Positions 40,410 to 57,834 of a stretch of 64,000 nucleotides of DNA are shown one piece after another. The notes under the pieces were generated by a model. It made no database searches. It was not told where the DNA came from and worked only from the letters and a program-made list of their open reading frames with translations. The position numbers were made by a program, and so were the translations under genes. Origin of the DNA: an uncultured virus (IMG/VR IMGVR_UViG_2643221865_000004) (taxonomy: Duplodnaviria > Heunggongvirae > Uroviricota > Caudoviricetes); the IMG/VR virus record IMGVR_UViG_2643221865_000004; one strand, written 5' to 3'. Each line of letters starts with the position of its first letter. The first letter of the stretch is position 1.

Positions 40410-41246
40410 TCAGTACCAGTTGAGGCTGTTGGAGTGGTCCAAAGCTGAGCAGGGAGACGCGTACCGGTCGGCGATGTATCCAAGCCCCCAGAGGATCTGC
40501 GTGCGAGCGTTCGTCTGCCAGTCGGGGCCAGCGGAGGCCATCTTCGAGCCGGGCAGCGCCTGCGGGATGCCGGTGGCGCCGCCGTTCCCGTTGTAGGCGT
40601 CCACCCGCCAGTTCGACTCCCGGTCCCACAGGGTGCTGAGGCACTGGAACTCCCCCTCGCCCCAGCCGTACTTGTCGGCGGCGATCCGGCGTGCTTGCGC
40701 ACGGGCGCCGTCCGGGGTGTTGGCGACCCGTGCGGCTTCTGCTGCGGCCGCGGCATCCGCGGCTGCCTGAGCGGCGACAGCGGCGTCGTGCTCGGCGATG
40801 GCGGTGGTGGTCGCCTGGGCGGCGGCGTCAGTGTTGTCGATCAGAGTTTCGATGCGGTCGACGCTGAGAAGTTCGTAGCGGGCGAGGCTGGCGACGTGGT
40901 CGGCCAGCTCGGTGGCGTCAACCTTCGAGGCGGCGGCCGCGATGACGGTGTTCGCAGTGCTGAGGGCAGCTTCGGCGGAAACGGAGGCTTTGAACTTGGC
41001 GATGTCGGCGTACACACCGAGGTGATCGCGGTCGAGGGAGCCTTGCTGGCTGAGGGTGACGGTGTACGCCTCCCGTTCGGCGCGGAGGTCAGCAGCGTTC
41101 GCCATGAGCGGGGCGGAGATCAGGGAGCCGCCGATGAGGGCGGCGGCGGAGATTGTGGCGATGCGGCGGCGGGCGGTTGTGCTCCCGAGGCCGGCGATTC
41201 GGTTCTTCAGGGTGATGAGGTCGGTGGTGAGGGTGCGCTGAGGCAT
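40410..41246 (-). CDS. Secreted lytic transglycosylase, paralog of 17831-18496
   Basis: CLSTLWDRESNW...GIPQALPGSKMASAGPDWQTN..TQILWGLGYIADRY. Confidence 0.85.
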   Translation of the reverse strand: MPQRTLTTDLITLKNRIAGLGSTTARRRIATISAAALIGGSLISAPLMANAADLRAEREAYTVTLSQQGSLDRDHLGVYADIAKFKASVSAEAALSTANTVIAAAASKVDATELADHVASLARYELLSVDRIETLIDNTDAAAQATTTAIAEHDAAVAAQAAADAAAAAEAARVANTPDGARAQARRIAADKYGWGEGEFQCLSTLWDRESNWRVDAYNGNGGATGIPQALPGSKMASAGPDWQTNARTQILWGLGYIADRYASPCSALDHSNSLNWY

Positions 41247-41385
41247 GGGGCTCCGATGTTCGAGCTGCCCTGCTGCGGCGACCGGAGTTGATCCGGTGGG
41301 CGCTGCCGCACCCTGTCGGGGTGTGGGGTGCGGCGCAGGCTGGTCCAGCCCCTCGCGGGAGGGGCCGGAACCTACATGCGCGGAC

Positions 41386-42150
41386 TCAGGCGGTCTTGGC
41401 TGCCTGGGTGCGCAGACGAGCCAGCCCGGAAGCCAGCGTCTCGGTGATCTCCTGCATTCCGCGGAAGGGGACGAAAGCTTCCACATCAGGCTGGAACAGT
41501 CGTGCGATGAATGCATCGCCGAGCGGCTCGTACTTCGAGGCGAGCCTCGCGACCATGTCCTTGTTGGCGGAGTGGCTGGCGGTGTGGTGCAAGGACAGGG
41601 CGTTGTCGACGAAGTCGGTGAACTTCACCAGCGCGACGCGAGGGTCGGCGATCGCTTCGACGACATGGGTGCGGTACGCGTCGTGCTTCTGGGCGCGAGT
41701 GAGCCCGGCGGGGAGCTCCGGGTTGGTGACAGCCTCAACGGTGCGGTACACGGTCGTGCCGAACTCCGTAGCCCAGAACGTCAGGGCGGTGTGTCGAGGG
41801 TCGCTGGTCTTGGTCACCGGGGACAGGGCGACGATGTCGTCGACGCAGTCTTCGACGGTGTCATGAAGGATCGATGCGATGATCGCGGCCTGGTCGGTGA
41901 CACCCCACCGGACCAGCCTGAGGGCCGAGCGGAGCGGGTGCTCGATGTAGTGGACGCGGGGCATGTCGCCGCGGTTCGCGCGGGTCTGGTCCCGGTGAAG
42001 GTAGGAAGCGTACGCAATCGCCTTCTCGACCAGGTCGACGTCGTTGCCGGCGGCCTCCGAGGCGAGCAGCAGCTCACGGCTGAGCAGGGTGGCGTCCATC
42101 TGCTTCAGCGGCAGGGAGCGGATCATCTCGTCAACAGGTGTGCTTCTCAT
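41386..42150 (-). CDS. HD-domain hydrolase, RelA/SpoT (Mesh1/SAH)-like
   Basis: HRDQTR, YIEHPL, ILHDTVED, LVKFTDFVDN; CCGCACATG-N8-ATG. Confidence 0.8.
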   Translation of the reverse strand: MRSTPVDEMIRSLPLKQMDATLLSRELLLASEAAGNDVDLVEKAIAYASYLHRDQTRANRGDMPRVHYIEHPLRSALRLVRWGVTDQAAIIASILHDTVEDCVDDIVALSPVTKTSDPRHTALTFWATEFGTTVYRTVEAVTNPELPAGLTRAQKHDAYRTHVVEAIADPRVALVKFTDFVDNALSLHHTASHSANKDMVARLASKYEPLGDAFIARLFQPDVEAFVPFRGMQEITETLASGLARLRTQAAKTA

Positions 42151-42215: not shown

Positions 42216-42320
42216 GTGCTCAACCGAAGTTGGGCGACGGTAGCCAGCTGGGCTGGACCTTGGCTACGTGTTTGTGTCGGCCGGGGCGACTGTGGAAGCC
42301 CACCCCGGCCGGCAGGTCGA

Positions 42321-42881
42321 TTAGTTGAAGGCCGAGTCCGGAGCAGTGGCCACCGAGGGGATGGTGATGACGACGGGGTCGCCCTTTGCGTCCTTGACTG
42401 CCGGGAGCGCCTCAACGGGAGTGTTGGGGTTGTCCGACGAGATGTAGAAGCGCAGGGTGTCGCTGACCTTGGAGACGGCGATGTACTCGCTGCCGTCAGC
42501 CGAGACGGCAACGTCCACCGACTCGGACGCCTGGATCAGCGAGTCGATGCCGTCGGCGTCAACGCCGGAGACGAGGTCACTGAAGGCGAGGTACTTGCCT
42601 TCGCCGGTGTTGGCGACGTACTGAGCGAAGGCGACGGACTCGGCTTCCTTGACGGAACCGAGGGCCTGCTTGCCAGCCTCCTTCTGTGCCCAGGGGATGA
42701 CCGCGAAGACGGTTGCGGCGATGATGCCACCGACGATGGCGATGACGATGACGCCGACCATGATCGAGGCGAGGTCGATCGCACCCTGCTGCGAGAAGAC
42801 GGCCTTGCGGAGGCCGAGCTCGCTCTTGCGGGCAGCGAACTGCTCCTTACGAGCCTTCAGGCTGTGCCGGAAAACGTTCAT
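42321..42881 (-). CDS. Type IV pilin-like protein (probable major pilin) with a non-canonical N-terminus
   Basis: Basic leader then QQGA-IDLASIMVGVIVIAIVGGIIAATVFAVIPW; lies immediately after the prepilin peptidase, with its own motif at 42960. Confidence 0.75.
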   Translation of the reverse strand: MNVFRHSLKARKEQFAARKSELGLRKAVFSQQGAIDLASIMVGVIVIAIVGGIIAATVFAVIPWAQKEAGKQALGSVKEAESVAFAQYVANTGEGKYLAFSDLVSGVDADGIDSLIQASESVDVAVSADGSEYIAVSKVSDTLRFYISSDNPNTPVEALPAVKDAKGDPVVITIPSVATAPDSAFN

Positions 42882-43006
42882 GAATATGGATCCTTTGGTT
42901 TTGTTGGCCGCCGTATCCGACGGCCAGTCGACTGCACCCGGTCGGGCGCAACGAAAAGGCATGTGGCGAAAACAGCCGTGGATCCTGCAGGTGGGAAGAA
43001 TCCCTG

Positions 43007-43651
43007 TCAGCCGAGGAGCCCGAAAGCGGAGAACATCGCCGTGTACACGAGGACCGCCGGCGGGATGGCGAGGGCCATGAACGGAGCCAGCGGGACGGTG
43101 GGCTTCTGCTCACCGTGGGCGCGGATGACGACGGCGACGGACACGACTGCGCAGAGCAGGAAAGTGAACAGCAGCCACATGCACGCGGTGAGTGGTGACA
43201 GGGCTGCGAGTCCCCCGGCGATCACGGGGGCGATCTTGATGTCCCCGCCGGCGGCGAACCCGGTCAGCCACCACATGAGGACCATCACGCCGAATGTGCC
43301 GGCGGCTGTGAGGGCGGCTGTGATCACGACCGGGTTGTGCGGGGACACCAGCTGGATGGTGATGAGGGCGGAAAGGACCCCGGCCGAGAGAACGGCGTTG
43401 TGGCTGTTCAGGATGAGCTTGGTGCGCCAGTCGACGTGGCCGAGGAAACCGGCACCGATTCCGAGGATGACGGTGAGCACGATCATCGGCCATGGCAGCT
43501 GGTGTGCGGCCAGGCCTGCGGCTCCGCCGGACAACGCCCCGGAGATCCAAGGTGGAGCTGTCCGGCTGAGCCGGCGCGCTTCGGCGATGTCGTCGTCGAG
43601 GTCGGGGTCGAACTGGTCGAAGTCGGCTGGGGCCGTCCCTGCTGCGGTCAT
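43007..43651 (-). CDS. Prepilin peptidase (A24), without the methyltransferase domain
   Basis: HVDWRTKLILN, AGGDIK, VPLAPFM; ATGA overlap with pilC. Confidence 0.85.
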   Translation of the reverse strand: MTAAGTAPADFDQFDPDLDDDIAEARRLSRTAPPWISGALSGGAAGLAAHQLPWPMIVLTVILGIGAGFLGHVDWRTKLILNSHNAVLSAGVLSALITIQLVSPHNPVVITAALTAAGTFGVMVLMWWLTGFAAGGDIKIAPVIAGGLAALSPLTACMWLLFTFLLCAVVSVAVVIRAHGEQKPTVPLAPFMALAIPPAVLVYTAMFSAFGLLG

Positions 43652-44844
43652 TGGCCGGGGATGGCGACGCCGGTGCCGTCCGGGACGCTCACTCCGCCGC
43701 CACCGCCGGTGCTGGTCATGTCCATCAGGGCGGGGAACATGGCGTACATCGGGACGATGACAGCGATGATCAGGACGGCGACGATCAGGTAGACGATCCA
43801 GTTGACGACAGGTTCCATCGTCTTCTGGAACCCGTCGAGCTGGACGTCTGCTTCCAGGCGGTACTCGGGGCCGAGCTCGCTCATCACTTCGATGGTCTGC
43901 CGGACGGACGGGGCGGCGGCCAGCATGTACTTGGCGTTCTCGGGGAGGAGGCGGGTCTGGGCGAACTCGGACAGTCGGGCGCCTTCGGTGCGCATCCGCT
44001 CCGCGTGGCGGTAGCAGTGCTCGGCGATCGCTTCGTTGCCGGCTCCGGCGCCGGCGGACTCGAGCGCTGCGGCTTCTCCCATTCCGGTGGACAGGTTGGT
44101 GGCGAGGAGCTCGAACAGTCGGCTCGTGGCGGCCAGCTGGACGATGGAACCGATCAGCGGAAGCCGGATCGACATACGGTCGGTGAACACCTGCACGGCG
44201 CGGATCTTGCGGCCGCCGAGCCCGTAGAACAGCCCGATGAGGACTCCGACGCCGATGAGGGAGCCGATGACGTACTTGGTGACGTCGGCGACGTTCAGCA
44301 CGATCAGGGTGAGCGGAGGCGTCTCCGTGTTCAGGGTCTTGAAGGTCGCGAGGAAGCCCGGGATGATCCACGCGGTCGCCGCGAACAGGAACCCCATCGC
44401 CATCGTGAACATGAAGCCCGGCTGGATCAAGGAGATCAGCAGCTTCTTCTTTACCGACTGGCCCTGCGACACCAGCTTCGCTGCCTGCACCAGGTTCTTG
44501 TGGATGCTGGCTGCGGTGGGGGCGGCTGATACGAGCTCGTGGACGGTGCGAGGGAACACGTCTTCGGAGAGGATCGCCTGTTTGAAGCCGACACCCTCTT
44601 CACGCATCGTCTTCGCAGCACGGGTGTACGCGCGGCCGACTTCGTACTTCTTGAACTGCTCGCCGACGATCTCCAGCGCGCGAGCTTCGGATTCACCGAC
44701 CTTCAGGATCATCGCGAGAGCGCGGAGGCTGCGGGCCAGGAGCTCCGGCTTCGTCTTCCGGCCGTTGTAGAAGGCCATCTTCCGCTTCTCGGGGGTCAGC
44801 TGGGCGGTTTGCGACATGGGGTCAGTCCTCGGTTTCGGTGTCAT
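43648..44844 (-). CDS. pilC: Type IV pilus platform protein (T2SS F family)
   Basis: Two T2SSF repeats; LIQPGF, TPPLT, MEPVV...IAVIVPMYAM. Confidence 0.85.
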   Translation of the reverse strand: MTPKPRTDPMSQTAQLTPEKRKMAFYNGRKTKPELLARSLRALAMILKVGESEARALEIVGEQFKKYEVGRAYTRAAKTMREEGVGFKQAILSEDVFPRTVHELVSAAPTAASIHKNLVQAAKLVSQGQSVKKKLLISLIQPGFMFTMAMGFLFAATAWIIPGFLATFKTLNTETPPLTLIVLNVADVTKYVIGSLIGVGVLIGLFYGLGGRKIRAVQVFTDRMSIRLPLIGSIVQLAATSRLFELLATNLSTGMGEAAALESAGAGAGNEAIAEHCYRHAERMRTEGARLSEFAQTRLLPENAKYMLAAAPSVRQTIEVMSELGPEYRLEADVQLDGFQKTMEPVVNWIVYLIVAVLIIAVIVPMYAMFPALMDMTSTGGGGGVSVPDGTGVAIPGQ

Positions 44845-44896
44845 TCACGCCGTGGACGCGGCGCACACCTGAGGCATGTGGCGAACCCCTCAGTTT

Positions 44897-45982
44897 TCAG
44901 CGGATGCCGAGGCCGCGGAGCTTGTCCTCGAGGATCGCGGCGCTTTTCGTGTTCGCCTGGGCTGTCTCCACGGTGATCTTCTCGTCCTTCACGAGCTGGG
45001 CGAGGGACTCCTCCATGGAGAACGAGTCGCGGGTGGATTCCAGCTGAGCGCGCATCATGTGCAGGTCACCTTTGGAGATCAGCTCCTGCATGTTCAGGTC
45101 GTTGAACATCAGCTCCCGTGCGGGCACCTTGCCGCCGCCGATTTTCGGCACGAGCCGCTGCACCATGACGCCGATCAGCGACTGGCCGAGACGGGAACGG
45201 ATCTGAGGCTGCTCGTCGGCGGTGAACTGTCCGATGAAACCGTCGAGCGCTTCCACGACGGAGCCTGCGTGGGCTGTGGTGATGACCAGGTGGCCGGTGG
45301 TGGCGGCGTGGAGAGCTGCGCGGGCGGTGGCCGGGTTCAGCATCTCGCCGATGAGGATGACGTTCGGCTTGGAGCGGAGGGCGTCCTCGATGGCTGTGGC
45401 GTAGTCGGGCGCGTGGATGCCGATCTCACGCTGGGTGAACATCGACTCCTTCGGGGTGTGGACGAACTCGATCGGCTGCTCGATCAGGTAGATGTGCTGC
45501 GCGGTGGTGCGGTTGATCAGGTCGATGAGCGCTGCGATCGCGGTCGTCTTTCCGGAACCGGTCGGGCCTTCCACCAGCAGCAGACCGCTGGATCGCTTCA
45601 CGACGTCCTGCAGTTGCTGCGGCAGGTCGAGCTTCTCGACATGTGGGACATCGGCGGGGATCAGACGGAACGTGCAGGAGTGACCTCCGACGGACTTACG
45701 GAACGTGCCACGGACGCGCCAGGTGCCGGTATCGAACGCTTCGGAGGAATGGCCGCGCTCACCGAACGGGTCGAACTCGTTCCCGTCCTCGTCATCGGGG
45801 TGGTTGATCTTCAACCACTCCAGGATCTCCCGCTCGGGGATCTGCACAGCGGGATCTTCGTAGTGGGAGAGCTTGTCAGCGGTGAGCAGCCAGATGCCGT
45901 CGTTCGGATGAATGTGGATGTCGGAGACCTGTTGGTTGCCGGCCTGGTCGATGATCCAGTACAGGTGCTCTTCGGGTGTCAT
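44897..45982 (-). CDS. pilT: Type IV pilus retraction ATPase
   Basis: SDIHI, GPTGSGKTT, IEQPIEFVH, QREIG, ILIGEM, TGHLVITTAH, QIRSRL (AIRNL-like). Confidence 0.9.
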   Translation of the reverse strand: MTPEEHLYWIIDQAGNQQVSDIHIHPNDGIWLLTADKLSHYEDPAVQIPEREILEWLKINHPDDEDGNEFDPFGERGHSSEAFDTGTWRVRGTFRKSVGGHSCTFRLIPADVPHVEKLDLPQQLQDVVKRSSGLLLVEGPTGSGKTTAIAALIDLINRTTAQHIYLIEQPIEFVHTPKESMFTQREIGIHAPDYATAIEDALRSKPNVILIGEMLNPATARAALHAATTGHLVITTAHAGSVVEALDGFIGQFTADEQPQIRSRLGQSLIGVMVQRLVPKIGGGKVPARELMFNDLNMQELISKGDLHMMRAQLESTRDSFSMEESLAQLVKDEKITVETAQANTKSAAILEDKLRGLGIR

Positions 45983-45994
45983 GGCGGTGCTCTC

Positions 45995-48900
45995 TTACTT
46001 TCCCTGGTCGGTGGTCTGACCGAGAACCTTGCGGATCTCTGCCTCGTCGGTGATGCCTGCCTCGACGAGGCGGGCGGAGTCTTCCTCGAATGTGGACGCT
46101 GAGGCTGCGTCGGCTACTTCACGGATCTCACCCAACGGGCGGTTCTCCATGACGGCTTCGATGAGCTGGTCGTTCATGGTGAGGACTTCGTGGATCGGGA
46201 CGCGGCCGCGGTACTTGTCCAGCGGGTCGACTCCGTCCCATTCCGGGTTGAGGCGGCGGACGAGACGCTGCGACACGATGCCCTTCACGGCGTCCATGAC
46301 AGCGAGCGGGGAGTCCTGCGCGAGCTCGATGAGGCGGAGGGCTGCGGTGACGTTGTCGTTGGCGTGGATGGTGGAGATGACCTGGCGGCCGGCCTTCGAC
46401 TGGCGGACGGCGGCGGCAGCGGTTTCGTTGTCACGGATCTCGCCGAGGAACAGGGTGTCGTAGTCGCTTCGGACGAGGAATGGGAGCAGGTCCTTGAAGC
46501 CAGCGCCGTTCTTCTCGTCGACCTCCAGCTGGGTGAGGCCGGGAAGGCGACGCTCGACCGGGTCTTCGAGGGTCCAGACGGTGCGGTCTCCGGTCGCGAC
46601 ATGCATGAGGGAGCCGTGCGCGGTGGTGGTCTTTCCGGAACCCATCGGGCCGGCGATCATGACCATGCGGTTCGACGCGGCGAGCATGTCGTAGAACAGG
46701 TTGAGGTTCTTCTCGGAGAACTCCAGCTCCTCCAACGGCTTGACCGCACCGCGTGATGGGAGGCGCATGACGAGGGCGTCGCCGCCGTCTTCGGAGCGGA
46801 ACAGGACGGCGCGGGCCTTGCGCACTTCACCGTCGACGGGGACGCCGTAGATGGCTTCCTGCGGGACGAACGATCCGTCGGACGCGAACTGGGCGCCGGC
46901 CTTGAAGATACCCATCACCTTCTGCGCGTCGGCGCCTTCCAGCTGGGCGAACTCCCGCATGGTTCCGTCGATGCGGGCGCGGAGGAGCAGGTGGTCGCGG
47001 GCGCCGTTGACGGTGGCGTGGATGTCTGAAGCGTCCATCAGGAGTGCTTCGTTGACCTTCTCGCCGAGCCATGTCTGGGCGTTGACGCCCGTCTCGATGG
47101 CGACCTCGCGGCTGCGGTTGATGCGTGCCGGAGTGGACGGGCGGGACGAGCCGAACGAGAAGAACGGGTCACGCTCGTTGACGATCGGTTCGAAGGCAGC
47201 ACCCGGGTCGACACGCTGGGTGCGCTGCTCCGGTGCAGGCTGGTACGGGGTCGAGTCGTACGGGAGCTCGGCGACAGGCCGAGGCGCCTGAGGCTGCACT
47301 GGAGCCTGGTACGCCGGTGCGGGCTGGAACTGCTGGGCAGGAGCGGCGGGGGCCGGCTGCTGGAACTGCGGGTAGGCGGGAGCGGGAGCCTGCACGACGA
47401 TGACCTGCGGTGCCGGAGCTTCCTCCTTCTTCACCACCTTCTTCTCGCCGAACACGACGTTGGTCGGGCCGAGCCCACCGAACGGGGAGAACGGAGAGTC
47501 GGCTGCTGGAGCGGCAGGCTCGGTGACGGCGACGCCCTCCGCCTCAGTGACGGGGTCAGCAGATACTTCGACGGGCTCAGCGATGGGGGCAGCGGCCGGG
47601 GTCTCGAACACTGCGGGCGCGTCAACGACAGCCGCAGCGGGCTCCTCGACGACAGGCTCTGCGACGACGGGCGCCTCTTCGGGTGCGAACGTCTGGAACT
47701 CGGGAACCTCGACAGGCGCCGGCAGGTCCTCAGCGTTCAGGTCCGCCCAGCCGAACGGTGAAGCAGTGTCGTCAGCGGCGGGCTCGACAACCTCTGGCAC
47801 GTCGTCCACCACAGCTTCCGGGGTCGCCTTGGCGTCCACGGCGGGGGTCTTCGACTTCTTCCGCTTCAGCCATCCGCGGCGGGCTCGAGGCTCAGTCGCC
47901 TCGTCGATGACGGGCTCAGCATCCGGGGTGGGGACGGTGGTCACCAGATCTTCGAATGACGGGAAAACAGGCACGGGCTGCGCGACTTCCTCAGCAGCCT
48001 CGGGCTCCGTTGCGACGTCGAGCTCGGTCTCAGCGACGGGCTCGATCTCGGGCTCGTCATCGGTGAGGGACTCGACGTCAGCGGCAGGCTCAGGCTGAGC
48101 TTCGGGCTCGGTGGCAGGGGCAACTTCGGGCTCGGCCGCGGCCGCCGGCGCGTCCTCAACCTCAGGCTCGGGTGTGATCTCGGTGTTGGTGGGCTCCTCG
48201 ACCTCGGGTGCGTTCAGCTCCGGGTCGGTGGTGGCGGCACCCCAGGTGGGAGGTGTCCACGCCGGTGCAGCCCAATCCGGGGTCGCCCAGGCGGGTGCCG
48301 CTGCCGACTCCTCGGGAACTTTGTCTTCGCTGGCGGGCTCCTGGACGTCGTCGGCTGCGGGCTCGACACTCTCGACCGGAGCGTCGTCGATGACGTCCTC
48401 GTCGGAGGGTCCCTCTGCAGCAGTGGCGGTTGCATCGGCCGTGAGCTGGTCGAACTCGATGACATCGGGCGTCGAGTCATCGGCGAGCTCGACTGCGCTC
48501 TCAGCCTCGGGGGCCGGCTCCGTCTCGTCGACAACGGGGATCTGCTCAGTTTCGGTTTCGATTTCAGTTTCGGTCTCGGCCTCAACTGAAACCTCAGCAA
48601 CGACGATCTCCTCAGCCTGATCGGCGGGCACCTCTGCCGGGTCCACCTCGAAGGCAGGGTCGTCCCACAGCTCGACGAGGTCGTGGTCGGTTCCCTCGTC
48701 AGCAATCTCGTCCTCGGCCACGGCGATGTCGTCAGCGACGGTCACCAGTTCGTCCAACGGCCAGAAGGTCGCCTCGAGCCACTCGGAGTCAGCAGGGACA
48801 ACAACGGTCGCGGGTGGTTCAGCGGCGGTCTTCACGCTGACGCCGATCTTCTCGATCAGGTGCGTGAGGTGCGCGTCGGCGCGCACGTCAAGGACGACGC

Positions 48901-49036
48901 TCTCTCCGCGCTTCAGGACGGAGCCTGCGGGAAGGTCGTTGCGGGAAGGCTCGACCCGGTGGCGGGGAGGCACGGGGTTGGTGCGCTTCTTCTTGTCGTC
49001 GCGCTTCACATACGGGTTAGCGTGTCGAGGTGTCAT
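45995..49036 (-). CDS. pilB: PilB/GspE assembly ATPase with a ~600-aa acidic Pro/Ala N-terminal region
   Basis: ASDIH, RARIDG, GPMGSGKTTT, TLEDPVE, LGEIRD, STIHAND, YRGRVPIHE. Confidence 0.88.
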   Translation of the reverse strand: MTPRHANPYVKRDDKKKRTNPVPPRHRVEPSRNDLPAGSVLKRGESVVLDVRADAHLTHLIEKIGVSVKTAAEPPATVVVPADSEWLEATFWPLDELVTVADDIAVAEDEIADEGTDHDLVELWDDPAFEVDPAEVPADQAEEIVVAEVSVEAETETEIETETEQIPVVDETEPAPEAESAVELADDSTPDVIEFDQLTADATATAAEGPSDEDVIDDAPVESVEPAADDVQEPASEDKVPEESAAAPAWATPDWAAPAWTPPTWGAATTDPELNAPEVEEPTNTEITPEPEVEDAPAAAAEPEVAPATEPEAQPEPAADVESLTDDEPEIEPVAETELDVATEPEAAEEVAQPVPVFPSFEDLVTTVPTPDAEPVIDEATEPRARRGWLKRKKSKTPAVDAKATPEAVVDDVPEVVEPAADDTASPFGWADLNAEDLPAPVEVPEFQTFAPEEAPVVAEPVVEEPAAAVVDAPAVFETPAAAPIAEPVEVSADPVTEAEGVAVTEPAAPAADSPFSPFGGLGPTNVVFGEKKVVKKEEAPAPQVIVVQAPAPAYPQFQQPAPAAPAQQFQPAPAYQAPVQPQAPRPVAELPYDSTPYQPAPEQRTQRVDPGAAFEPIVNERDPFFSFGSSRPSTPARINRSREVAIETGVNAQTWLGEKVNEALLMDASDIHATVNGARDHLLLRARIDGTMREFAQLEGADAQKVMGIFKAGAQFASDGSFVPQEAIYGVPVDGEVRKARAVLFRSEDGGDALVMRLPSRGAVKPLEELEFSEKNLNLFYDMLAASNRMVMIAGPMGSGKTTTAHGSLMHVATGDRTVWTLEDPVERRLPGLTQLEVDEKNGAGFKDLLPFLVRSDYDTLFLGEIRDNETAAAAVRQSKAGRQVISTIHANDNVTAALRLIELAQDSPLAVMDAVKGIVSQRLVRRLNPEWDGVDPLDKYRGRVPIHEVLTMNDQLIEAVMENRPLGEIREVADAASASTFEEDSARLVEAGITDEAEIRKVLGQTTDQGK

Positions 49037-49111: not shown

Positions 49112-49936
49112 TCATGCTGGTGGTGGCGACAGGAACGCGTCGACGTGGGCGATCGGGATCGTCCGTGACGAGTACCGACCCTGATTTCCGAGGTTGTACT
49201 CCTCGATGTGGACGGTCTTGTCTGCCAGGTTCACCGATTCGACGTACGCGACATGGTTGGAACCCCACCATGCGACCCAACCGGGTTGGGGGTCGGCGGA
49301 TACCGGCCAGTGATGGGCTTCCCAGTTCGCTTTCCACTGGGATGCGTCGCCGCCCTGAGGGGTGAGGTCCGACCAACGCCAACGGAGCTTGTTAGAGGTG
49401 GCTCCGGCGTCCTGGTTCAGTCGCCAGGCGACGAAGTCGACACACTCCCGGTAGTAGTACCCGATCGGTGACAGGCCGCCGCCTTCATCGTCTGTGAGCG
49501 CGTGCGGCCACGGGTAGTCGTCACCGGGCTCCACGCCGAGGGATTTCAGGGCTGCGAGGCGGGCAGCGTGTGCGGAGTCCGCTGCTTCCTGGCGGACCTG
49601 CAGTCCGGTGAGGGCGGCGTAGGAGTCGCGGGACACCTTGATGGTCGCTGCTTCCGCGGGGACTTCGATGTGCTGGGAGGTGTCGGCCGCCGGGGATGGT
49701 GACCGCTGGTAGTCGTAGCCGGCCGGAGATGCGTTCGCGTAAGCAGGCAGTACGAGCGTGGCGATGAGCAATGTCGATGCGGACACAGCTGTGGTCTTCT
49801 TCAGGTTGATCCGAGGTATCCGCAGCTGAGTGATGCGCCTGTGGATGGTCCCGGTGAGCATGCTGGCGCACGCTGCCGCCTCTATGCGGAGGTTCCGCAG
49901 GGACGGCAGACGCGCATGTCGGGGTCGGTCGGCCAT
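49112..49936 (-). CDS. CHAP-domain cell-wall hydrolase
   Basis: YYRECVDFVAWRL, GGDASQW, NHVAYVE, IEEYN. Start uncertain. Confidence 0.85.
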   Translation of the reverse strand: MADRPRHARLPSLRNLRIEAAACASMLTGTIHRRITQLRIPRINLKKTTAVSASTLLIATLVLPAYANASPAGYDYQRSPSPAADTSQHIEVPAEAATIKVSRDSYAALTGLQVRQEAADSAHAARLAALKSLGVEPGDDYPWPHALTDDEGGGLSPIGYYYRECVDFVAWRLNQDAGATSNKLRWRWSDLTPQGGDASQWKANWEAHHWPVSADPQPGWVAWWGSNHVAYVESVNLADKTVHIEEYNLGNQGRYSSRTIPIAHVDAFLSPPPA

Positions 49937-49978: not shown

Positions 49979-50455
49979 CTAGAGGCTGGCTGTCTTCCCG
50001 GAGACGATGACTTCGTTCGTGCCGGTGGATCCTCCACCGCCGACGCCGCGGACGGAGTCGCTGAGCTCGCCGTCGACCTCAGTGAAGTCCGGGGTGAGGT
50101 AGTGCTGGTACATCATCTGCGCGACCCGGTCTCCGGGGGTGACGACGAACACGGTGTCACCGAAGTTGTGGAGGATGACCATGATCTCGCCGCGGTAGCC
50201 GGAGTCGATGACACCGGGGGCGTTCAGGACGGCGACGGAGTGCTTCAGCGCGAGACCGGACCGCGAGCAGACCAGGCCGACGGTGTCGGAGGGGATCTCC
50301 TGCGCGAAGCCGGTCTTCACGAGGGCGTGCTCGCCAGGCTCGATGAAGTAGTGCCCGGTGGAGCGAAGGTCGAATCCGGCGTCGCCAGGGGTGGCTGCGG
50401 TGGGGAGGACAGCGTCGGGGTGGAGTCGCTTGAACTGGACGGGGATGGTGGACAT
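49979..50455 (-). CDS. dut: dUTPase
   Basis: GDAGFDL, RSGLA, GVIDSGYRGE, GDRVAQ, RGVGGGGSTG. Confidence 0.95.
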   Translation of the reverse strand: MSTIPVQFKRLHPDAVLPTAATPGDAGFDLRSTGHYFIEPGEHALVKTGFAQEIPSDTVGLVCSRSGLALKHSVAVLNAPGVIDSGYRGEIMVILHNFGDTVFVVTPGDRVAQMMYQHYLTPDFTEVDGELSDSVRGVGGGGSTGTNEVIVSGKTASL

Positions 50456-50523
50456 CGGGTGGGCTTTCTGGTTGTGGGTGGTCGGTTCGCCGGTGGGCGC
50501 TGACACCGTCATGTGCGGACGGG

Positions 50524-51015
50524 TCAGAAATCGATCGGGCGGGTGCCGCCGATCAGGCAGGTGTCCCAGTGGGTTTCCGGCATGGTGGTGGAGGTGAAGG
50601 TCCCGTGTCCGACATCACCGATGAGGCAGGTGTTCCCGTACCGGACTGAGAACTGGACGGTCTCCTGCATGGTTCCGGCTGTCCCGTTGTGGTCGGTGAC
50701 TTCCATGACGTCGTCGGGGACGCCTGCCGCACGGAACGCTTGGATGTACGCGGCGCCGTCCATCGCGCCTGTGCCTGCGACTGTTCCTGCGACCCGGTCG
50801 AAGAACCGTTCGGCTTGCGCCACCGAGGCTTCCGGGTCGTATGGTTCCGGGACGGCGATGTGGCCTGGGTTCACCGCTGCAGCGGTCGGGGTCGGTTTGG
50901 GGGCCGGCGGTTCCGGTGGTTCCGGCATCAGCACGGTGTAGCTGAGCACGGCGGTGGCGATGAACAGGACGGTGACGACGGCGGACAGGATCAGCCTCTT
51001 GGTGGCTCGGCTCAT
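50524..51015 (-). CDS. Membrane-anchored protein (DUF6993-like)
   Basis: N-terminal TM; TVQFSVRYGNTCLIG and CLIGGTRPIDF. Confidence 0.65.
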   Translation of the reverse strand: MSRATKRLILSAVVTVLFIATAVLSYTVLMPEPPEPPAPKPTPTAAAVNPGHIAVPEPYDPEASVAQAERFFDRVAGTVAGTGAMDGAAYIQAFRAAGVPDDVMEVTDHNGTAGTMQETVQFSVRYGNTCLIGDVGHGTFTSTTMPETHWDTCLIGGTRPIDF

Positions 51016-51785
51016 CGGATCGTCTCCACCCACTGGTCGAGGAGCGGTTGCACGTCGGCGGGAGCTCCGCCGGCGCGGGGGTAGAACTTCTCCAACGTGG
51101 TGTACGCGATCAGACGTTCGCTCCAGGCGGTGAACTTCGGGTTGCAGGAGATGAGGGTGAGGAGGTGATCGAAGCCGAGGTTGTCGGAGTCTGGCCAGTC
51201 CTTCAGCACCGACACCTGGGTCCGGTCCACAAGGTCTGAGTTCCGGAACCGGTACTCGTACCAACCGTCGGTTGTCTCGACGTAGACGGGGTCTCCGACG
51301 CGAAGCTCGGCGAGGTTGAAGAACGGGGACCCGTACGCGGATCGGTGCGCTGTGATGATGCTGTTGCCGGCTCCACCCAGCGGTGCGCTGCCGATGTAGT
51401 GACCGGCGACGCCACGGTCGAGGATGTCGTGCTTGTCGGTGCCTTCGACGATCGCGAGCTTGAAGTCCGTTCCGAGCCTCGGGGCGTAGAGCACACCGAT
51501 TGTCGTGCCTTGCTCCCACGCGAGGATGTCCTGTCCGGGGAGACGGTATTCCTGGTCGTACAGTTTCGAGGCAGCCTGCGACCCGGCGGGGACCGGGTGC
51601 CGCTCGAAGTCGGAAGCCCACGTCTCCGCGGTGGTGCTCGCTTGAACGGCGACGACTTCAGCGGTGGCTTCGTCGGTGGCGACGAGTTTCCAGCCGAGGA
51701 ACAGCAGGATGATGACCAGGCCGGTGATCAGCAGCTCCAAGCAGACCGCGAAGGGGTCAGCCCGGTGCTGGACGGCGGATGTCAT
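51012..51785 (-). CDS. Class E sortase
   Basis: TAHRSAYG, LTLISCNP, SERL catalytic H/C/R. Confidence 0.88.
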   Translation of the reverse strand: MTSAVQHRADPFAVCLELLITGLVIILLFLGWKLVATDEATAEVVAVQASTTAETWASDFERHPVPAGSQAASKLYDQEYRLPGQDILAWEQGTTIGVLYAPRLGTDFKLAIVEGTDKHDILDRGVAGHYIGSAPLGGAGNSIITAHRSAYGSPFFNLAELRVGDPVYVETTDGWYEYRFRNSDLVDRTQVSVLKDWPDSDNLGFDHLLTLISCNPKFTAWSERLIAYTTLEKFYPRAGGAPADVQPLLDQWVETIR

Positions 51786-52297
51786 CGTCGTGCCAGGTCG
51801 ACGTGATGTGCGAAACGGTTGCGGGCCCGGTCACGGACCGCCGCGATCTCCTTCGCAGACAGGCCGTACAGGACGATCAACCCCGCCACGAAAGCAGCCA
51901 TAGTGAGCGGGATGGCGTACTGCTTGCCGATGAAGATGAGCGCGGCGCAGCAGACGGCGCTGACGATCAGGTAGGACGACATTCGGCGCCAGAACTGCTT
52001 CCTGAACAGCGGCGATCGACCCTCCTCAGCGATGAGCCGGTCTTCCTCCCGCAGCCACAGTTCCACGTCGTCCTCGGATGCGAAGGTGATGGGCTCATCG
52101 TCGTAGAACACGGCGGATCGACGGTCGGCACCTGTGATGGTCCCGTGGACGGTGGCCGAGGCGCCGGTCTCTGAGCTGGCCTCCAGGTCAGCGGATTCGA
52201 TGAGCATCATCACCTCTCCGCTGCCGTCGGGGATCAGCACCCAGCGGTCCTTGAGGGCGTCCTCGGTGGCAGTCCACGCGGTCAGTTTTCCGGTCAT
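51782..52297 (-). CDS. Membrane protein (two C-terminal TMs)
   Basis: ATGA-coupled on both sides. Confidence 0.7.
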   Translation of the reverse strand: MTGKLTAWTATEDALKDRWVLIPDGSGEVMMLIESADLEASSETGASATVHGTITGADRRSAVFYDDEPITFASEDDVELWLREEDRLIAEEGRSPLFRKQFWRRMSSYLIVSAVCCAALIFIGKQYAIPLTMAAFVAGLIVLYGLSAKEIAAVRDRARNRFAHHVDLARR

Positions 52298-53439
52298 GCG
52301 GCGATCACCGAGCGGACGGAGTCGATCAGGTCGAACGCTTCCGGCCACGCGAACATCCGGGGGCCGGTGACGAACTTGTTGTAGGACTGGTCGTACACGA
52401 TCCGCTCCCAGGTGGGTGCGAGGAGCCCGTCGATGACAGGCTTGTCGTCGAAGAGGATGTCGCCCTTGATGAGGGTCTTGTCCTGGGTGAGGACGACCCT
52501 CTTCACCATGTCCTTGCCAAAGTGCTCGCCGATCGCCCACAGCTTGTCGGACGCGCACGACTCGTTGTAGAGCGCCGGCGTGGAGCAGAACAGCACGTTG
52601 ACACCTGCGTCGACGAGGGCGCGGATCACTTCGACGGCTCCCGGGAACACGTCGAGCTCGCGGAACAGGCCGGGCCATGCCATCGCCTCGCGGAGAGCGG
52701 CGGCTTCGTCGGCTGGGGTGTTGGGGAAGAAGTCCCATTCGTCGCGGGTGCCGGCGTCGGCGATCTTCACGTTCGGGTGGTTGATCCGGGCACGGCGAAC
52801 GATTCCGCCTTCCCAGTCGAAGATGACACCGTCCATGTCGAACAGGACTGTGAACGGGTCGGTGCTGTAGTCGCGGCCGGAGGCGACATGCCCGGCGATG
52901 ATGTCGAACAGCTGATCCCAGCTGGTCATCCGGCGGCCGGGGGTGTTCCGGTTGTACGGCTGGTCGAACACCACCTGCTCCCACTCGGGGATCATGCTGC
53001 CTGTGATCTCCGGCTTGTCGTCCAGCAGGATGTCGCCGCGGACGACGGTCTTGTCGAACGTGAGGATGGTGTTGGCTGCGACCTTGTCGCCGAAGTTGGC
53101 TGCGTTCCACACGAGTTTGTCGCTGGCGCAGCTGGGGTTGTCGGCTGACGGTGTGGTGCAGACGAAGTGGTTGATCCCCCGGTCGTGAAGCTTCCGGAAC
53201 GCCTTCTGGGCGCCGGGGGTGACGGGGAGGTTCCCGTAGAAGCCGGCGGTGTTCATCGTGGCTCGGAAGGCGTCCCGCTCTTCCGCCGGGAGTGTGAGGT
53301 GGAAGTCCCACTGGTCTCGGGTTCCGGCGTCGGCGAACGTCAGGTGCGGGTAGGCGGCACGGACGTCACGGATGAGCCCTCCCTCCCAGTCGGCCATGGG
53401 GGCGTCCTGGTCGGAGAGCACGATGAAAGGTGTGGTCAT
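52294..53439 (-). CDS. Tandem-domain 5'(3')-deoxyribonucleotidase (NT5C, HAD)
   Basis: Two copies: SDQDAP and FDMDGV; CASDKL twice; DKT..GDIL.DDKP twice; DQ.YN twice. Confidence 0.88.
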   Translation of the reverse strand: MTTPFIVLSDQDAPMADWEGGLIRDVRAAYPHLTFADAGTRDQWDFHLTLPAEERDAFRATMNTAGFYGNLPVTPGAQKAFRKLHDRGINHFVCTTPSADNPSCASDKLVWNAANFGDKVAANTILTFDKTVVRGDILLDDKPEITGSMIPEWEQVVFDQPYNRNTPGRRMTSWDQLFDIIAGHVASGRDYSTDPFTVLFDMDGVIFDWEGGIVRRARINHPNVKIADAGTRDEWDFFPNTPADEAAALREAMAWPGLFRELDVFPGAVEVIRALVDAGVNVLFCSTPALYNESCASDKLWAIGEHFGKDMVKRVVLTQDKTLIKGDILFDDKPVIDGLLAPTWERIVYDQSYNKFVTGPRMFAWPEAFDLIDSVRSVIAA

Positions 53440-53483
53440 ATCCCCCACATGTGCGGATGTTGCCGGGTTTGCTGCATCCAGGC

Positions 53484-56376: not shown

Positions 56377-57834
56377 ATGTTCCGCAAGCTCTACCGACCG
56401 CTACCCACCTTGGCAAGCCTGCGTGCTGCGATCGATCTCGCCTCGATCATGGTGGGTGTCATCGTCATCGCCATCATCGGTGCGATCATCGCCGCCAGCG
56501 TCTTCACCGTGATCCCCTGGTCCCAGGACGAGAAAGCGAAGGTGGATCTGACTGCGGTCAAGGACATCCAAGCCATCGCCAAGCTCCCGGCTCCCGGCGG
56601 TGTCGGAAGGTACCTGGAGACCGCCGACCTGACCAGCGGAGCCCTGGCCGGGTTCGAAGGTAAGAAGGTCGACGACCCCGGCACTCTGCTGGTCACCACC
56701 GACCAGGACGGCACCTGCTACGTCGCCACCTCTCGGTCCCAGTCCGGCCAGGTCGTCTGGTACGTCACCGACAAGAACCCAGCACCCCAGAAGACCGCCA
56801 TCGCCCCTGACTACTGCGGCATCGACGTCGTCCAGCAGGGCGAAGACACCCCCGGCCCCGGCAGCGGCCCCAGTGGCGGCGGACCAATCACACCAGTCGG
56901 AAACCCCGGCGACCCGGCCGTCGATGTGGACGGATACGTGCCCACAGGGCAGCCCAACCCGACCGTATTCGCTGACCGCAACGGTGGCGGCCTCGGAACC
57001 AACCCGTCCGGCGCCGGACCGTCACGCTCCTACAACGTCACAGCTGTCATCGGCGGGCCTGGCCCGTCGAACCCTGCACTGCCGGTGATCACCGAAGCGC
57101 CAAGCGACACCACGATCTCCGATGTTCACGCATGGATTGGCACGAAGGAAGTCTCCGTCACCCAGTCAGGTTGGTTCCTGATGAGCGGCAACGCGAGCGC
57201 TGTGGTCATCGGGAACAACAACTTCAAGGTCGGTTCCGGATGGAACTCCACCGTCAGGTCATGGTGGGAGGACGGCTACCTGTCCTTCAAGGTGGGCGGC
57301 GGACAGCCGAACATCATGCGCATGAACGGGGCAACGTCACCCATGCTCGACTCCCTGTCGAACGACTACGGTGAGGACTTCGTCTGGCCGGCCGTCGCTG
57401 AGGCCACAGCGGCAAGGTCGGGCGTGAGCGACTGGAGCTACGGAGCCGGCTTCGAAAGCTTGTTCAGCACTGTCCGGCCGTTCACCCCCGCCGACATCAA
57501 GTCGTTGCCGTTCCTGAAGAACATCCACGCGACCGGCGGCGCAACCATCAACCTGACCAACGGTGTCATCCACCTGGCCGACGGACGGAACCTGTCGTTG
57601 GCGAAGGACCTTGCCTACTTCGACTCGTCGGAGCCGTGGCTGACGATGAGGACCTTCTCCGACGGAGACGGACAGTTCACGTCCGTCACCACCGTCGTCA
57701 ACGAGGCCAAAGCACTGAAGGGCATCACCCGCGCGGAGCTGCTCGGCGCCACGATCACATTCGAGTCGAACGGCACCAACACCATCAAGCTGGTCGACAA
57801 GCACTGGTACGACACCAAGTTCAACCGGAACTGA
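56377..57834 (+). CDS. Large pilin-like protein (minor pilin or adhesin)
   Basis: N-terminal AA-IDLASIMVGVIVIAIIGAIIAASVFTVIPW, nearly identical to 42321-42881, plus a beta-rich C-terminal extension. Confidence 0.75.
   Translation: MFRKLYRPLPTLASLRAAIDLASIMVGVIVIAIIGAIIAASVFTVIPWSQDEKAKVDLTAVKDIQAIAKLPAPGGVGRYLETADLTSGALAGFEGKKVDDPGTLLVTTDQDGTCYVATSRSQSGQVVWYVTDKNPAPQKTAIAPDYCGIDVVQQGEDTPGPGSGPSGGGPITPVGNPGDPAVDVDGYVPTGQPNPTVFADRNGGGLGTNPSGAGPSRSYNVTAVIGGPGPSNPALPVITEAPSDTTISDVHAWIGTKEVSVTQSGWFLMSGNASAVVIGNNNFKVGSGWNSTVRSWWEDGYLSFKVGGGQPNIMRMNGATSPMLDSLSNDYGEDFVWPAVAEATAARSGVSDWSYGAGFESLFSTVRPFTPADIKSLPFLKNIHATGGATINLTNGVIHLADGRNLSLAKDLAYFDSSEPWLTMRTFSDGDGQFTSVTTVVNEAKALKGITRAELLGATITFESNGTNTIKLVDKHWYDTKFNRN

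What the first reader, a model, noticed from the sequence alone, without database searches (positions are those of the whole stretch)
42321..49036. Type IV pilus system with non-canonical pilins lacking F1/E5
Seen: pilB-pilT-pilC-prepilin peptidase-pilin in one orientation. The pilin reads QQGA-IDLASIMVGV where canonical type IVa pilins read G-FTLIELM, giving Asp at +2 and Ser at +5 on that alignment. Established: E5 supports N-methylation and assembly. The A24 peptidase here has no methyltransferase domain, which fits. Actinobacteria mostly use Tad or sortase pili, so a PilT-containing retractile pilus on a mobile element is notable. Inference: it serves mating-pair formation or adhesion.
Basis: partly seen in the sequence, partly recalled or inferred. 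Interest (0 to 1): 0.7.

Follow-up and report, generated by a model that had tools for sequence, protein, structure and literature searches.

The report
Megaplasmid type IV pilus, odd pilins
A giant plasmid of an actinobacterium carries its own retractile type IV pilus genes, and the pilin subunits belong to a conserved, apparently undescribed family that lacks the usual N-terminal signature.

Summary
On the minus strand, 42321-49036 encodes a PilB-like ATPase, a PilT-like ATPase, a PilC platform, a short A24 (GxGD) peptidase and a 186-aa pilin. The pilin has a type IV pilin fold but no N_methyl motif and no Glu5. It belongs to a family in which 120 of 120 listed members read [G/A]-A-I-D-L-A-S-I-M-V-G...P-W-x-Q-D.

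The peptidase is too divergent for Pfam. Profile comparison and a FlaK-like model place it in A24, and it has no methylase domain.

The window lies on a 701-kb, 65% GC contig with 42 tRNAs and a tmRNA, probably a megaplasmid. That contig carries:
- a second T4P cluster;
- 13 pilin paralogs, seven of them fused to beta-propeller or DUF285 modules at Pfam thresholds;
- homologs of three minor-pilin-like genes of pACHL01.

Related clusters sit on 375-608 kb Micrococcales plasmids. The pilin family also occurs on 0.79-0.88 Mb low-GC metagenome contigs. It was not found in 440 related genomes.

Best reading: a plasmid-specific retractile pilus displaying modular adhesins. Its role in plasmid transfer is untested. 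I rate it a new variant of a known kind.

The parts
45995..49036 (-). PilB-like assembly ATPase, 1013 aa. The first ~650 aa are acidic and Pro/Ala/Glu-rich with no family match. The T2SSE ATPase domain is at 659-1001.
   Evidence: Pfam T2SSE E 6e-53. NCBIfam GspE 194 bits, PilB 161 bits, ComGA 153 bits. 46% identical over the ATPase part to the second plasmid PilB and 31% to the chromosomal PilB.
44897..45982 (-). PilT-like retraction ATPase, 361 aa.
   Evidence: TIGR01420 pilT_fam 274 bits, E 1e-81, below the 319-bit cut-off but far above the next family. The sequence shows GPTGSGKTT and LIGEM motifs, which I name Walker A and Walker B from recall. 40% identical to the second plasmid PilT and 38% to the chromosomal one.
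43648..44844 (-). PilC/GspF-like platform protein, 398 aa.
   Evidence: Pfam T2SSF, two stretches, E 2e-19. TIGR02120 GspF 99 bits over residues 25-369. 54-61% identical to PilC of megaplasmid and metagenome relatives.
43007..43651 (-). Divergent A24 (GxGD) prepilin peptidase, 214 aa, without a methylase domain. Its start overlaps the pilC stop.
   Evidence: No Pfam or NCBIfam hit of its own. 40 cluster representatives in 1.84 billion proteins. 32 of 38 relatives hit PF01478. D74 and G135-G136-D137-x-K139 are conserved. hhalign to the chromosomal PilD gives 97.9%, E 4e-13, to residues 127-274 only. The AF2 model has pLDDT 92.9 and its best PDB match is FlaK 3s0x, Z 11.4.
42321..42881 (-). Non-canonical type IV pilin, 186 aa. 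A 33-34 aa basic leader is followed by G-A-I-D-L-A-S-I-M-V-G and a hydrophobic helix ending I-P-W-A-Q.
   Evidence: Translation. 238 homologs. The motif is present in 120 of 120 listed members. AF2 pLDDT 85.9, with a long helix and a 4-strand sheet. 23 of the top 24 PDB matches are pilins or pseudopilins, best Z 8.9. No N_methyl hit.
42276..42314 (-). GC-rich hairpin just after the pilin stop codon, a likely operon end.
   Evidence: Sequence. Fold of 42255-42325: -31.3 kcal/mol against -23.2 for shuffles, z -2.2. It has no T-run, so the terminator role is inferred.
56377..57834 (+). Second member of the same pilin family in the window, 485 aa, with a short leader ...SLR-A-A-I-D-L-A-S-I-M-V-G. 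It is not part of the operon.
   Evidence: tblastn and profile hits. N-terminus printed. No Pfam domain in its C-terminal part.

Best explanation
This is a working, plasmid-specific type IV pilus machine of the T4aP/T2SS/Com lineage.

Proposed mechanism:
1. The co-encoded, methylase-less GxGD peptidase removes the basic leader of the pilin at the cytoplasmic membrane face. Cleavage is next to the conserved small residues, either [G/A]33|A34 or A34|I35.
2. PilB and PilC polymerise the unmethylated pilin through its nearly invariant hydrophobic N-terminal helix.
3. The invariant Asp at +2 or +3 takes the charge-neutralising role that Glu5 plays elsewhere.
4. PilT retracts the fibre.
5. The many paralogs with the same N-terminus but large beta-propeller, DUF285 or unknown C-terminal modules are incorporated as modular minor pilins. 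They give the fibre its binding specificities.

The machine belongs to a family of giant tRNA-array plasmids. It most likely serves attachment or cell-cell contact that benefits the element, possibly including its transfer.

Shown: gene content, family membership, predicted folds, motif conservation, genomic distribution.
Inferred: cleavage, polymerisation, the role of Asp, retraction, adhesion and any role in transfer.
For: Operon:
- A complete, tightly packed operon with an RBS and a terminal hairpin.
- GC3 of 0.81-0.88 in all called genes of the operon shows coding constraint. The peptidase frame was not among those scored.

Pilin:
- Pilin fold.
- In the Atlas feature search, the N_methyl family set accounts for 26 of 30 hits.
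- The N-terminal 33 residues are almost invariant across 120 of 120 members whose whole-protein identity to the window's pilin is 31-47% in alignment A2. That is the pattern expected of a polymerisation helix.
- The residue before the invariant Ala is Gly in 110 and Ala in 10 of 120 members, as at prepilin cleavage sites.

Peptidase:
- Both catalytic Asp motifs are kept and the model is FlaK-like.

Conservation of the gene order:
- pilB-pilT-pilC-(peptidase)-pilin recurs on pACHL01 and pYJN5-1. A Microbacteriaceae MAG has pilB-pilT-pilC-pilin with no peptidase hit. One low-GC metagenome locus holds hits to all five.

Elsewhere on the same replicon:
- Homologs of the three minor-pilin-like genes of pACHL01, at C5:139097-142341. 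One printed N-terminus reads ERG-SALID.
- Paralogs with modular architectures.
Against: - No experimental or expression data: no RNA holder was listed.
- No PilM homolog on the replicon; PilM_2 is found only in the chromosomal cluster. PilN and PilO were not searched.
- The pilin does not match the defining N_methyl motif and lacks Glu5.
- PilT scores below its family cut-off, and its AIRNLIRE-like stretch (motif name recalled) is degenerate.
- The peptidase itself misses the Pfam threshold.
- Foldseek gave only weak pilin matches, best E 0.5.
- The profile link to canonical PilA is modest: probability 50%.
- Which of three A24 peptidases in the genome cuts these pilins is unknown.
Confidence: 0.72

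Rival explanations
1. This is a short pseudopilus or surface-display system rather than a long pilus. The machine would insert and present the many pilin-anchored propeller proteins through the thick wall, or secrete proteins. The analogies are type II secretion, the second Clostridium T4P set, or the archaeal bindosome.
For: - 15 family members in the genome, most of them large proteins with binding-type domains.
- Leaders of the R-[A/G]|A type and the absence of Glu5 resemble archaeal class III signals (resemblance recalled).
- The peptidase's best structural match is the archaeal FlaK.
- PilC and PilB score best against GspF and GspE models.
- No PilM on the replicon.
Against: - A PilT paralog is conserved in the cluster in all relatives examined that carry the operon. 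That fits a dynamic, retractile fibre.
- The operon-linked pilin is small (186 aa) and major-pilin-like. Relatives hold tandem arrays of small pilins.
- Structural neighbours are dominated by true pilins as well as pseudopilins.
Confidence: 0.15
2. This is a DNA-uptake (competence-type) pilus that lets the plasmid's host take up DNA.
For: PilB and PilT also match ComGA models, at 153 and 119 bits. T4P-dependent transformation is known in Actinobacteria for Tad pili (PMC6916266 passages).
Against: No ComEA/ComEC-type genes were seen among the window's annotated genes. The rest of the replicon was not searched for them. The many adhesin-like modular pilins are not expected for a Com pilus.
Confidence: 0.06
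3. The small protein is not a pilin substrate at all. It would be an uncleaved single-pass membrane protein, and the cluster a decaying or silent remnant.
For: No N_methyl motif and no Glu5. The peptidase is below Pfam thresholds. There is no expression evidence.
Against: - All five frames are intact, and the four scored have strong third-position GC bias.
- The N-terminus is near-invariant over hundreds of proteins.
- The pilin fold is predicted with high confidence.
- Synteny with the peptidase is kept in distant, 43-46% GC relatives.
Confidence: 0.05

Closest known systems
Type IVa pili of monoderm bacteria (Streptococcus sanguinis, Clostridium), with modular minor pilins
   Same: A PilB-PilT-PilC-peptidase-pilin cluster in a single-membrane bacterium. 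A long leader peptide and a lollipop pilin fold. Pilin modules fused to large binding domains (PMC6916266 passages).
   Different: - The pilin N-terminus is G-A-I-D-L-A-S-I-M-V-G instead of G-F-T-L-I-E. There is no Glu5 and no N_methyl HMM hit.
- The Pro lies about 6 residues later in the helix.
- The peptidase has no methylase domain.
- No PilM homolog was found on the replicon.
- The cluster is encoded on a giant plasmid with 13 paralogs.
Tad/Flp (type IVc) pili, the type studied so far in Actinobacteria
   Same: The peptidase lacks the methylase domain, like TadV (PMC10191384 passages). There is possibly a small residue (Ala) at +1.
   Different: One PilC with two T2SSF repeats rather than split TadB/TadC. 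A PilT is present. The pilin is 186 aa with a globular head, not a 44-68 aa Flp. There is no Flp motif. The ATPases match the PilB/GspE and PilT models far better than the TadA model.
Archaeal type IV pili and the bindosome, with the FlaK/PibD peptidases
   Same: No Glu5. The paralogs have Arg followed by Gly/Ala before the putative cut. The peptidase's best structural match is FlaK. Many different proteins share one signal.
   Different: The ATPases and the platform belong to the bacterial PilB/PilT/GspF groups. FlaI scores only 35-50 bits. The pilin head resembles bacterial pilins.
Plasmid-borne type IV pili: the R64 thin pilus with PilV variants (recalled), and the T4P of the Pseudomonas AMR megaplasmid family
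   Same: A pilus encoded by a large plasmid, with variable adhesin-type pilins. Megaplasmid T4P is mentioned in PMC8628078 (passage).
   Different: Those are proteobacterial systems with canonical Glu5 pilins, and they accompany a type IV secretion system. Here no VirB4, VirD4 or TrwC was detected on the replicon. A role in transfer is conjecture.

Membership tests
Type IV pilin (class III signal peptide, IPR012902 / PF07963 N_methyl) | Hydrophilic leader ending in Gly (rarely Ala), followed by about 21 hydrophobic residues | tested here: met
   A leader of about 33 aa is followed by a hydrophobic helix. The position before the invariant Ala is Gly in 110 and Ala in 10 of 120 members. The definition is taken from PMC6916266.
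Type IV pilin (class III signal peptide, IPR012902 / PF07963 N_methyl) | Glu at mature position 5 | tested here: not met
   Position 5 is Ser39 or Ala38, depending on the cut site. The only acidic residue is the invariant Asp36 at +2 or +3.
Type IV pilin (class III signal peptide, IPR012902 / PF07963 N_methyl) | Match to the N_methyl HMM (PF07963 / TIGR02532) | tested here: not met
   No hit at E up to 10 in Pfam or up to 1 in NCBIfam. A genome-wide PF07963 search finds only the two chromosomal pilins on C6.
Type IV pilin (class III signal peptide, IPR012902 / PF07963 N_methyl) | Lollipop fold: a long N-terminal helix packed on an antiparallel sheet | tested here: met
   AF2 pLDDT 85.9, helix 31-92 plus four strands. 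23 of the top 24 VIA rows are pilins or pseudopilins. PilE 4noa gives Z 8.9, rmsd 3.2, 85 aligned. Thermus PilA4 gives Z 8.6, 119 aligned, with model residue 34 matching chain residue 1.
Type IV pilin (class III signal peptide, IPR012902 / PF07963 N_methyl) | Cleaved by a prepilin peptidase and polymerised into a filament | not testable with these tools
   Needs N-terminal MS and EM.
Peptidase A24 (GxGD aspartic prepilin peptidase) | Two conserved catalytic Asp, the second within GxGD | tested here: met
   D74 and G135-G136-D137-I-K139 are invariant or nearly so in 38 relatives. They align to the DxxT and GGDVKL stretches of the chromosomal PilD.
Peptidase A24 (GxGD aspartic prepilin peptidase) | Match to PF01478 above the gathering score | tested here: not met
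   The window's protein has no hit at E up to 10. 32 of 38 relatives hit at E up to 0.01, best 5e-10. The profile-profile probability is 97.9%. Membership therefore rests on transitive and profile evidence.
Peptidase A24 (GxGD aspartic prepilin peptidase) | FlaK-like polytopic fold | tested here: met
   Model pLDDT 92.9. FlaK 3s0x gives Z 11.4, rmsd 3.2, 148 aligned; the next row is Z 7.2. Foldseek was uninformative.
Bifunctional PilD type of A24 peptidase | N-terminal Cys-rich methylase domain (IPR010627) | tested here: not met
   The protein is 214 aa. The alignment covers only PilD residues 127-274. No such Pfam family appears for it or for 38 relatives.
Type IVa pilus machinery | PilB-type ATPase, PilT-type ATPase, and a PilC with two T2SSF repeats | tested here: met
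   PilT reaches 274 bits against a family cut-off of 319, so it is a divergent member.
Type IVa pilus machinery | PilM/PilN/PilO alignment proteins | tested here: not met
   PilM_2 is found only in the chromosomal cluster on C6 and not on C5. None is recognisable next to the operon. PilN and PilO families were not searched separately.
Tad / type IVc pilus | Split TadB and TadC platforms, a short Flp pilin, and no PilT | tested here: not met
   A single two-repeat PilC, a 186-aa pilin, and a PilT are present.

The most novel reading that the evidence does not exclude
The locus may be the attachment organ of a widespread, essentially undescribed class of giant actinobacterial extrachromosomal elements.

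Features of these elements:
- Sizes of 0.37-0.88 Mb.
- In the three examined for tRNAs, arrays of about 40 tRNAs; a tmRNA in this contig, and one reported for pCPAA3.
- In this contig, their own DnaE and ribonucleotide reductase.
- In this contig, no detectable type IV secretion system.

Under this reading, the elements use private, retractile type IV pili built from a non-Glu5 pilin family. Interchangeable propeller-tipped pilins would choose and pull in partner cells for transfer. That would make it a Gram-positive counterpart of the R64 thin pilus with its variable PilV adhesins.
Probability: 0.2. Interest if true: 0.85.

Novelty: new variant of a known kind. Interest (0 to 1): 0.6.

Why it matters
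Type IV pilins are found in genomes mainly through the N_methyl/Glu5 signature. This family has the pilin fold and a dedicated machine but escapes that signature. Pilin surveys would therefore miss it, and records name its members 'hypothetical protein' or 'PulG'.

An almost invariant alternative N-terminus, with Asp at +2/+3, no methylase and a later Pro, is a natural experiment. It bears on what Glu5 and N-methylation actually do in filament assembly. A review calls the significance of methylation a mystery (PMC10191384).

The setting also links pilus biology to poorly studied elements: giant tRNA-array plasmids shared by Microbacteriaceae and Micrococcaceae, and look-alike 0.8-Mb metagenome contigs with up to eight pilin-family loci each. 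How these elements spread is unknown; the eight PLSDB plasmids that share the backbone protein are typed non-mobilizable.

Tried and rejected
- **Phage origin.** No DNA or protein match to the pilin or operon in 50,697 phage records. No relative in IMG/VR contigs. PHROGs gave only domain-level hits (Ig-like, transglycosylase, HNH) for 47 window proteins. A phage reading was dropped.
- **Second cell in the assembly.** Rejected as a reading for C5. Contamination is 2.3% and GC is an even 65% along the contig. This is an argument, not a proof.
- **Foldseek.** For the pilin, the best row was Thermus PilA4 at E 0.5. For the peptidase it was uninformative. The VIA-align wide search was used instead.
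- **Word-based homolog search for the peptidase.** It found only 2 proteins. The exhaustive search found 40.
- **The search for related loci with the peptidase alignment.** It failed because no stretch was conserved enough.
- **tblastn of the pilin against plasmids.** It found 1 record only, yet a profile search found 5 members on each of two plasmids. The tblastn blank is a sensitivity artefact.
- **Expression.** No RNA holder was listed, and the one DNA holder may be the source sample.
- **Circularity of C5.** No terminal overlap was found. This decides nothing.
- **Earlier findings of this scan.** Nothing was on record.
- **Literature.** Listings showed no paper on this pilin family or on T4P of these plasmids. 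This covers only the held open-access library. No supplements were read.

Full report
**What is there**

The window has 65% GC and is mostly coded on the minus strand. Between 42321 and 49036 five genes follow each other on that strand:
- A 1013-aa PilB-like ATPase, 45995-49036. The T2SSE domain covers residues 659-1001, E 6e-53. The first ~650 residues are acidic and Pro/Ala/Glu-rich and have no family match.
- A 361-aa PilT-like ATPase, 44897-45982. TIGR01420 gives 274 bits, E 1e-81, below the 319-bit cut-off.
- A 398-aa PilC/GspF platform, 43648-44844, with two T2SSF stretches.
- A 214-aa polytopic membrane protein, 43007-43651.
- A 186-aa protein, 42321-42881.

The gaps between successive genes are 12 and 52 nt, then an ATGA-type overlap, then 125 nt (coordinates). 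The last gene has an AAGGA box 9 nt before its ATG. A GC-rich hairpin follows its stop (-31.3 kcal/mol, z -2.2). The consensus promoter scan found nothing.

**The pilin**

The protein reads MNVFRHSLKARKEQFAARKSELGLRKAVFSQQG-AIDLASIMVGVIVIAIVGGIIAATVFAVIPWAQKEAGKQ.... It has no Pfam or NCBIfam pilin hit.

A search of 5.8 billion cluster representatives gave 238 relatives, some named 'pseudopilin PulG' by JGI.

In all 120 listed members the N-terminus follows one pattern:
- Gly (110) or Ala (10), then Ala (114), then Ile (112).
- Then D-L-A-S, invariant in 120 of 120.
- Then I-M-V-G and a Gly-rich hydrophobic stretch, ending P-W-[A/S]-Q-D.

Whole-protein identity of the other members to the window's pilin is only 31-47% in alignment A2.

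AlphaFold2 with 100 sequences gives pLDDT 85.9. The model has a 62-residue helix (31-92) and a four-stranded sheet.

Against 48,161 PDB representatives, 23 of the top 24 rows are type IV pilins or pseudopilins:
- PilE 4noa: Z 8.9, rmsd 3.2, 85 residues aligned.
- Thermus PilA4 6xxd: Z 8.6, 119 aligned, with model residue 34 matching residue 1 of the mature pilin.

Foldseek alone was weak, with a best E of 0.5. In the ESM Atlas feature search, the N_methyl family set accounts for 26 of 30 hits.

A profile alignment to the genome's own canonical PilA gives probability 50%, E 1.6e-4. It aligns G33 with Gly(-1), treats A34 as an insertion, and pairs I35 with F1, D36 with T2 and S39 with E5.

**Where it is cut**

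Two registers remain open.

The evidence for A34|I35:
- The hhalign register.
- The M-x-G-V spacing of a pilin-like protein elsewhere on the replicon, which reads ERG-SALIDAMFGV.

The evidence for G33|A34:
- Position 33 is only ever Gly or Ala.
- Position 34 is Val in 5 of 120 members, and Val or Met in two of this genome's paralogs. Those residues would be poor at -1.

Either way there is no acidic residue at +5, and the invariant Asp sits at +2 or +3.

A review describes Glu5 as forming a salt bridge with the N-terminal amine of the next subunit (PMC10191384, passages). That Asp36 takes over this role is my inference.

**The peptidase**

The 214-aa protein matches no Pfam or NCBIfam model, even at E 10 and E 1 respectively. 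An exhaustive HMMER search of 1.84 billion representatives found only 40 relatives.

The evidence that it is an A24 peptidase:
- 32 of 38 aligned relatives hit Peptidase_A24 at E up to 0.01.
- D74 and G135-G136-D137-x-K139 are conserved.
- The family profile aligns to residues 127-274 of the 276-aa chromosomal PilD with 97.9% probability, E 4e-13.
- It hits FlaK weakly by sequence, E 0.19.
- The AF2 model (pLDDT 92.9) has FlaK 3s0x as its best structural match. That match has Z 11.4, rmsd 3.2 and 148 residues aligned, against Z 7.2 for the next row.

It is therefore a divergent GxGD prepilin peptidase. It lacks the N-terminal Cys-rich methylase module that the chromosomal PilD shows (sequence). 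This matches the TadV and FlaK types (PMC10191384).

**The replicon**

The window is C5:633971-697970 of an 11-contig, 4.54-Mb genome.

C5 is 701 kb at an even 65% GC, against 68-69% for the other large contigs. ARAGORN finds 42 tRNAs and a tmRNA on it, 38 of the tRNAs plus the tmRNA within 5.9-22.4 kb.

The window itself also encodes DnaE, NrdI/E/F, dUTPase, a 5'-nucleotidase, Nudix proteins, cell-wall hydrolases, two sortases, a ParA-like protein and many unknowns.

Links to known megaplasmids:
- The T4P genes are about 70% identical in DNA to clusters on 375-440 kb Micrococcaceae plasmids (pACHL01, pYJN5-1 and two Arthrobacter plasmids). They match more weakly to 546-608 kb Curtobacterium plasmids.
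- A 1046-aa unknown protein (6764-9904) has full-length homologs on exactly these 8 plasmids out of 72,556 records.
- pYJN5-1 and pACHL01 carry 41 and 38 tRNA matches, and 5 pilin-family genes each.
- Their operon-linked pilins read G-A-F-D-L-P-S-I-L-V-G...I-P-F-A-Q-D. One is the N-terminus of an 1865-aa fibronectin-III protein.
- The Curtobacterium plasmid pCPAA3 is noted in print only for its tmRNA (PMC10832533, passage).

I read C5 as a member of a family of giant tRNA-array plasmids. Its circularity is not shown.

**A paralog family and a second machine**

The genome has 15 members of the pilin family, 13 on C5 and 2 on C1. One more lies in this window, at 56377-57834. Most have short leaders ending R-A-A-I-D-L.

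Pfam results for the 14 paralogs scanned:
- Four carry BNR/Sortilin propellers.
- Two carry RCC1 propellers.
- One carries DUF285.
- One has a sub-threshold CBM_4_9 hit.
- Six have no family.

Eleven of the paralogs are 411-1057 aa long.

Homologs of pACHL01's three minor-pilin-like genes lie at C5:139097-142341.

C5 holds a second PilB-PilT-PilC-A24 cluster at 476971-482013. It is 46/40/33% identical to the window's proteins. The chromosomal proteins are 31/38/21% identical.

The chromosome (C6) has a textbook cluster: pilB, pilT, pilC, pilA (KGFTLIELL), further pilin-like genes, pilD and pilMNO-like genes. It holds the genome's only N_methyl and PilM_2 matches.

**Distribution**

The pilin profile found nothing in 40 relatives, which included 7 of the same genus and 17 more of the same family. 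It also found nothing in 400 genomes drawn across the order.

A pattern scan of 185,579 species genomes gave 8 loci:
- Frigoribacterium, Curtobacterium and Cryobacterium.
- Three loci from two Microbacteriaceae MAGs.
- A record titled Streptomyces.
- A 1.5-kb contig binned as Armatimonadota.

In metagenomes, 178 stretches encode relatives and 64 loci were kept. Of these, 51 have 42-51% GC and 13 have 57-62%.

Single contigs of 788,683, 878,612 and 883,042 bp carry 8, 3 and 4 listed loci respectively.

Hits to the window's proteins among the 64 loci:
- Peptidase: four loci.
- PilC: four loci.
- PilT: two loci.

One 16-kb locus gave nine tblastn pilin hits next to pilC and an A24 peptidase.

Sampled flanks of these contigs are mostly unknown ORFs. 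The rest are DUF285, RCC1 and CBM pilin fusions, NAD-dependent DNA ligase, ParA and ADP-ribosyltransferase-like proteins. They look like C5 rather than like ordinary chromosomes, but their nature and hosts are not established.

**Function**

What is shown: an intact, conserved, pilin-plus-machine gene set.

The presence of PilT and of binding-module pilins points to a retractile adhesive fibre. This parallels the modular pilins of S. sanguinis (PMC6916266).

A role in plasmid transfer is conjecture. C5 has FtsK/SpoIIIE-type ATPases but no detectable VirB4, VirD4 or TrwC. PLSDB types the eight related plasmids as non-mobilizable. Even so, the backbone is shared between two bacterial families.

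**Verdict**

It is a new variant of a known kind: a type IV pilus whose pilins and peptidase fall outside the current family models, tied to a family of giant plasmids.

Noticed in passing
G000 contig C5: 5894-22352 and 692440-700623. In the window: 58470-58543 and 62050-62123.: The 701-kb contig carries 42 tRNA genes and a tmRNA (tag ANASRSDFALAA), mostly in one 17-kb array. Two of them, tRNA-Cys and tRNA-Gln, lie in the window. Related plasmids pYJN5-1 and pACHL01 have 41 and 38 tRNA matches.
   Followed up: partly
window 1-4020, 18695-19657, 26655-29314, 49979-50512, 52294-53544: The replicon has its own DnaE-type Pol III alpha, NrdF, NrdE, NrdI, dUTPase and a tandem 5'-nucleotidase/HAD protein. 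That is a nucleotide and replication gene set more typical of giant phages than of plasmids. No phage structural genes were seen in the window.
   Followed up: partly
window 6764-9904: A 1046-aa protein with no family match. Its full-length homologs (33-37% identity) occur on only 8 of 72,556 plasmid records, all 375-608 kb Micrococcales megaplasmids. It is a candidate backbone marker for this plasmid family.
   Followed up: partly
window 51012-51785 and 54937-55674: Two sortase genes flank the region, one of them next to the second pilin-family gene (56377-57834). I did not look for LPXTG substrates.
   Followed up: no
window 22569-23843 and 31439-32818: Two paralogous unknown proteins (424 and 459 aa) with near-identical C-terminal ends (...RRLHFW.LPDGTVELSRVV.H.D..P). 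Two tandem Nudix-like paralogs lie at 20827-22122.
   Followed up: no
window 37480-40347 and 24249-26627: Large secreted proteins with Ig-like repeats. One has a reprolysin-type metalloprotease domain. Peptidoglycan hydrolase-type genes lie at 17831-18589, 40410-41516 and 49112-49936 (CHAP, directly upstream of pilB). These may help a pilus cross the wall, which is speculation.
   Followed up: no
G000 C5:476971-485594: A second PilB-PilT-PilC-A24 cluster on the same replicon. A nearby 229-aa ORF reads ...KKDG-IEVSIPNIIVAVTISLAII, possibly yet another non-canonical pilin type.
   Followed up: partly
loci L039, L043, L049, L056, L072, L097 (metagenome contigs of 0.79-0.88 Mb, 43-51% GC): These very long low-GC contigs carry many dispersed pilin-family genes fused to DUF285, RCC1 and CBM modules, plus ADP-ribosyltransferase-like genes, ParA and DNA ligase, among mostly unknown ORFs. 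They could be giant extrachromosomal elements or small genomes. This is undecided.
   Followed up: partly
G000 C1:417844-423710: Two pilin-family genes (411 and about 360 aa) lie on a contig with chromosomal GC. They may mark an integrated fragment of such an element.
   Followed up: no
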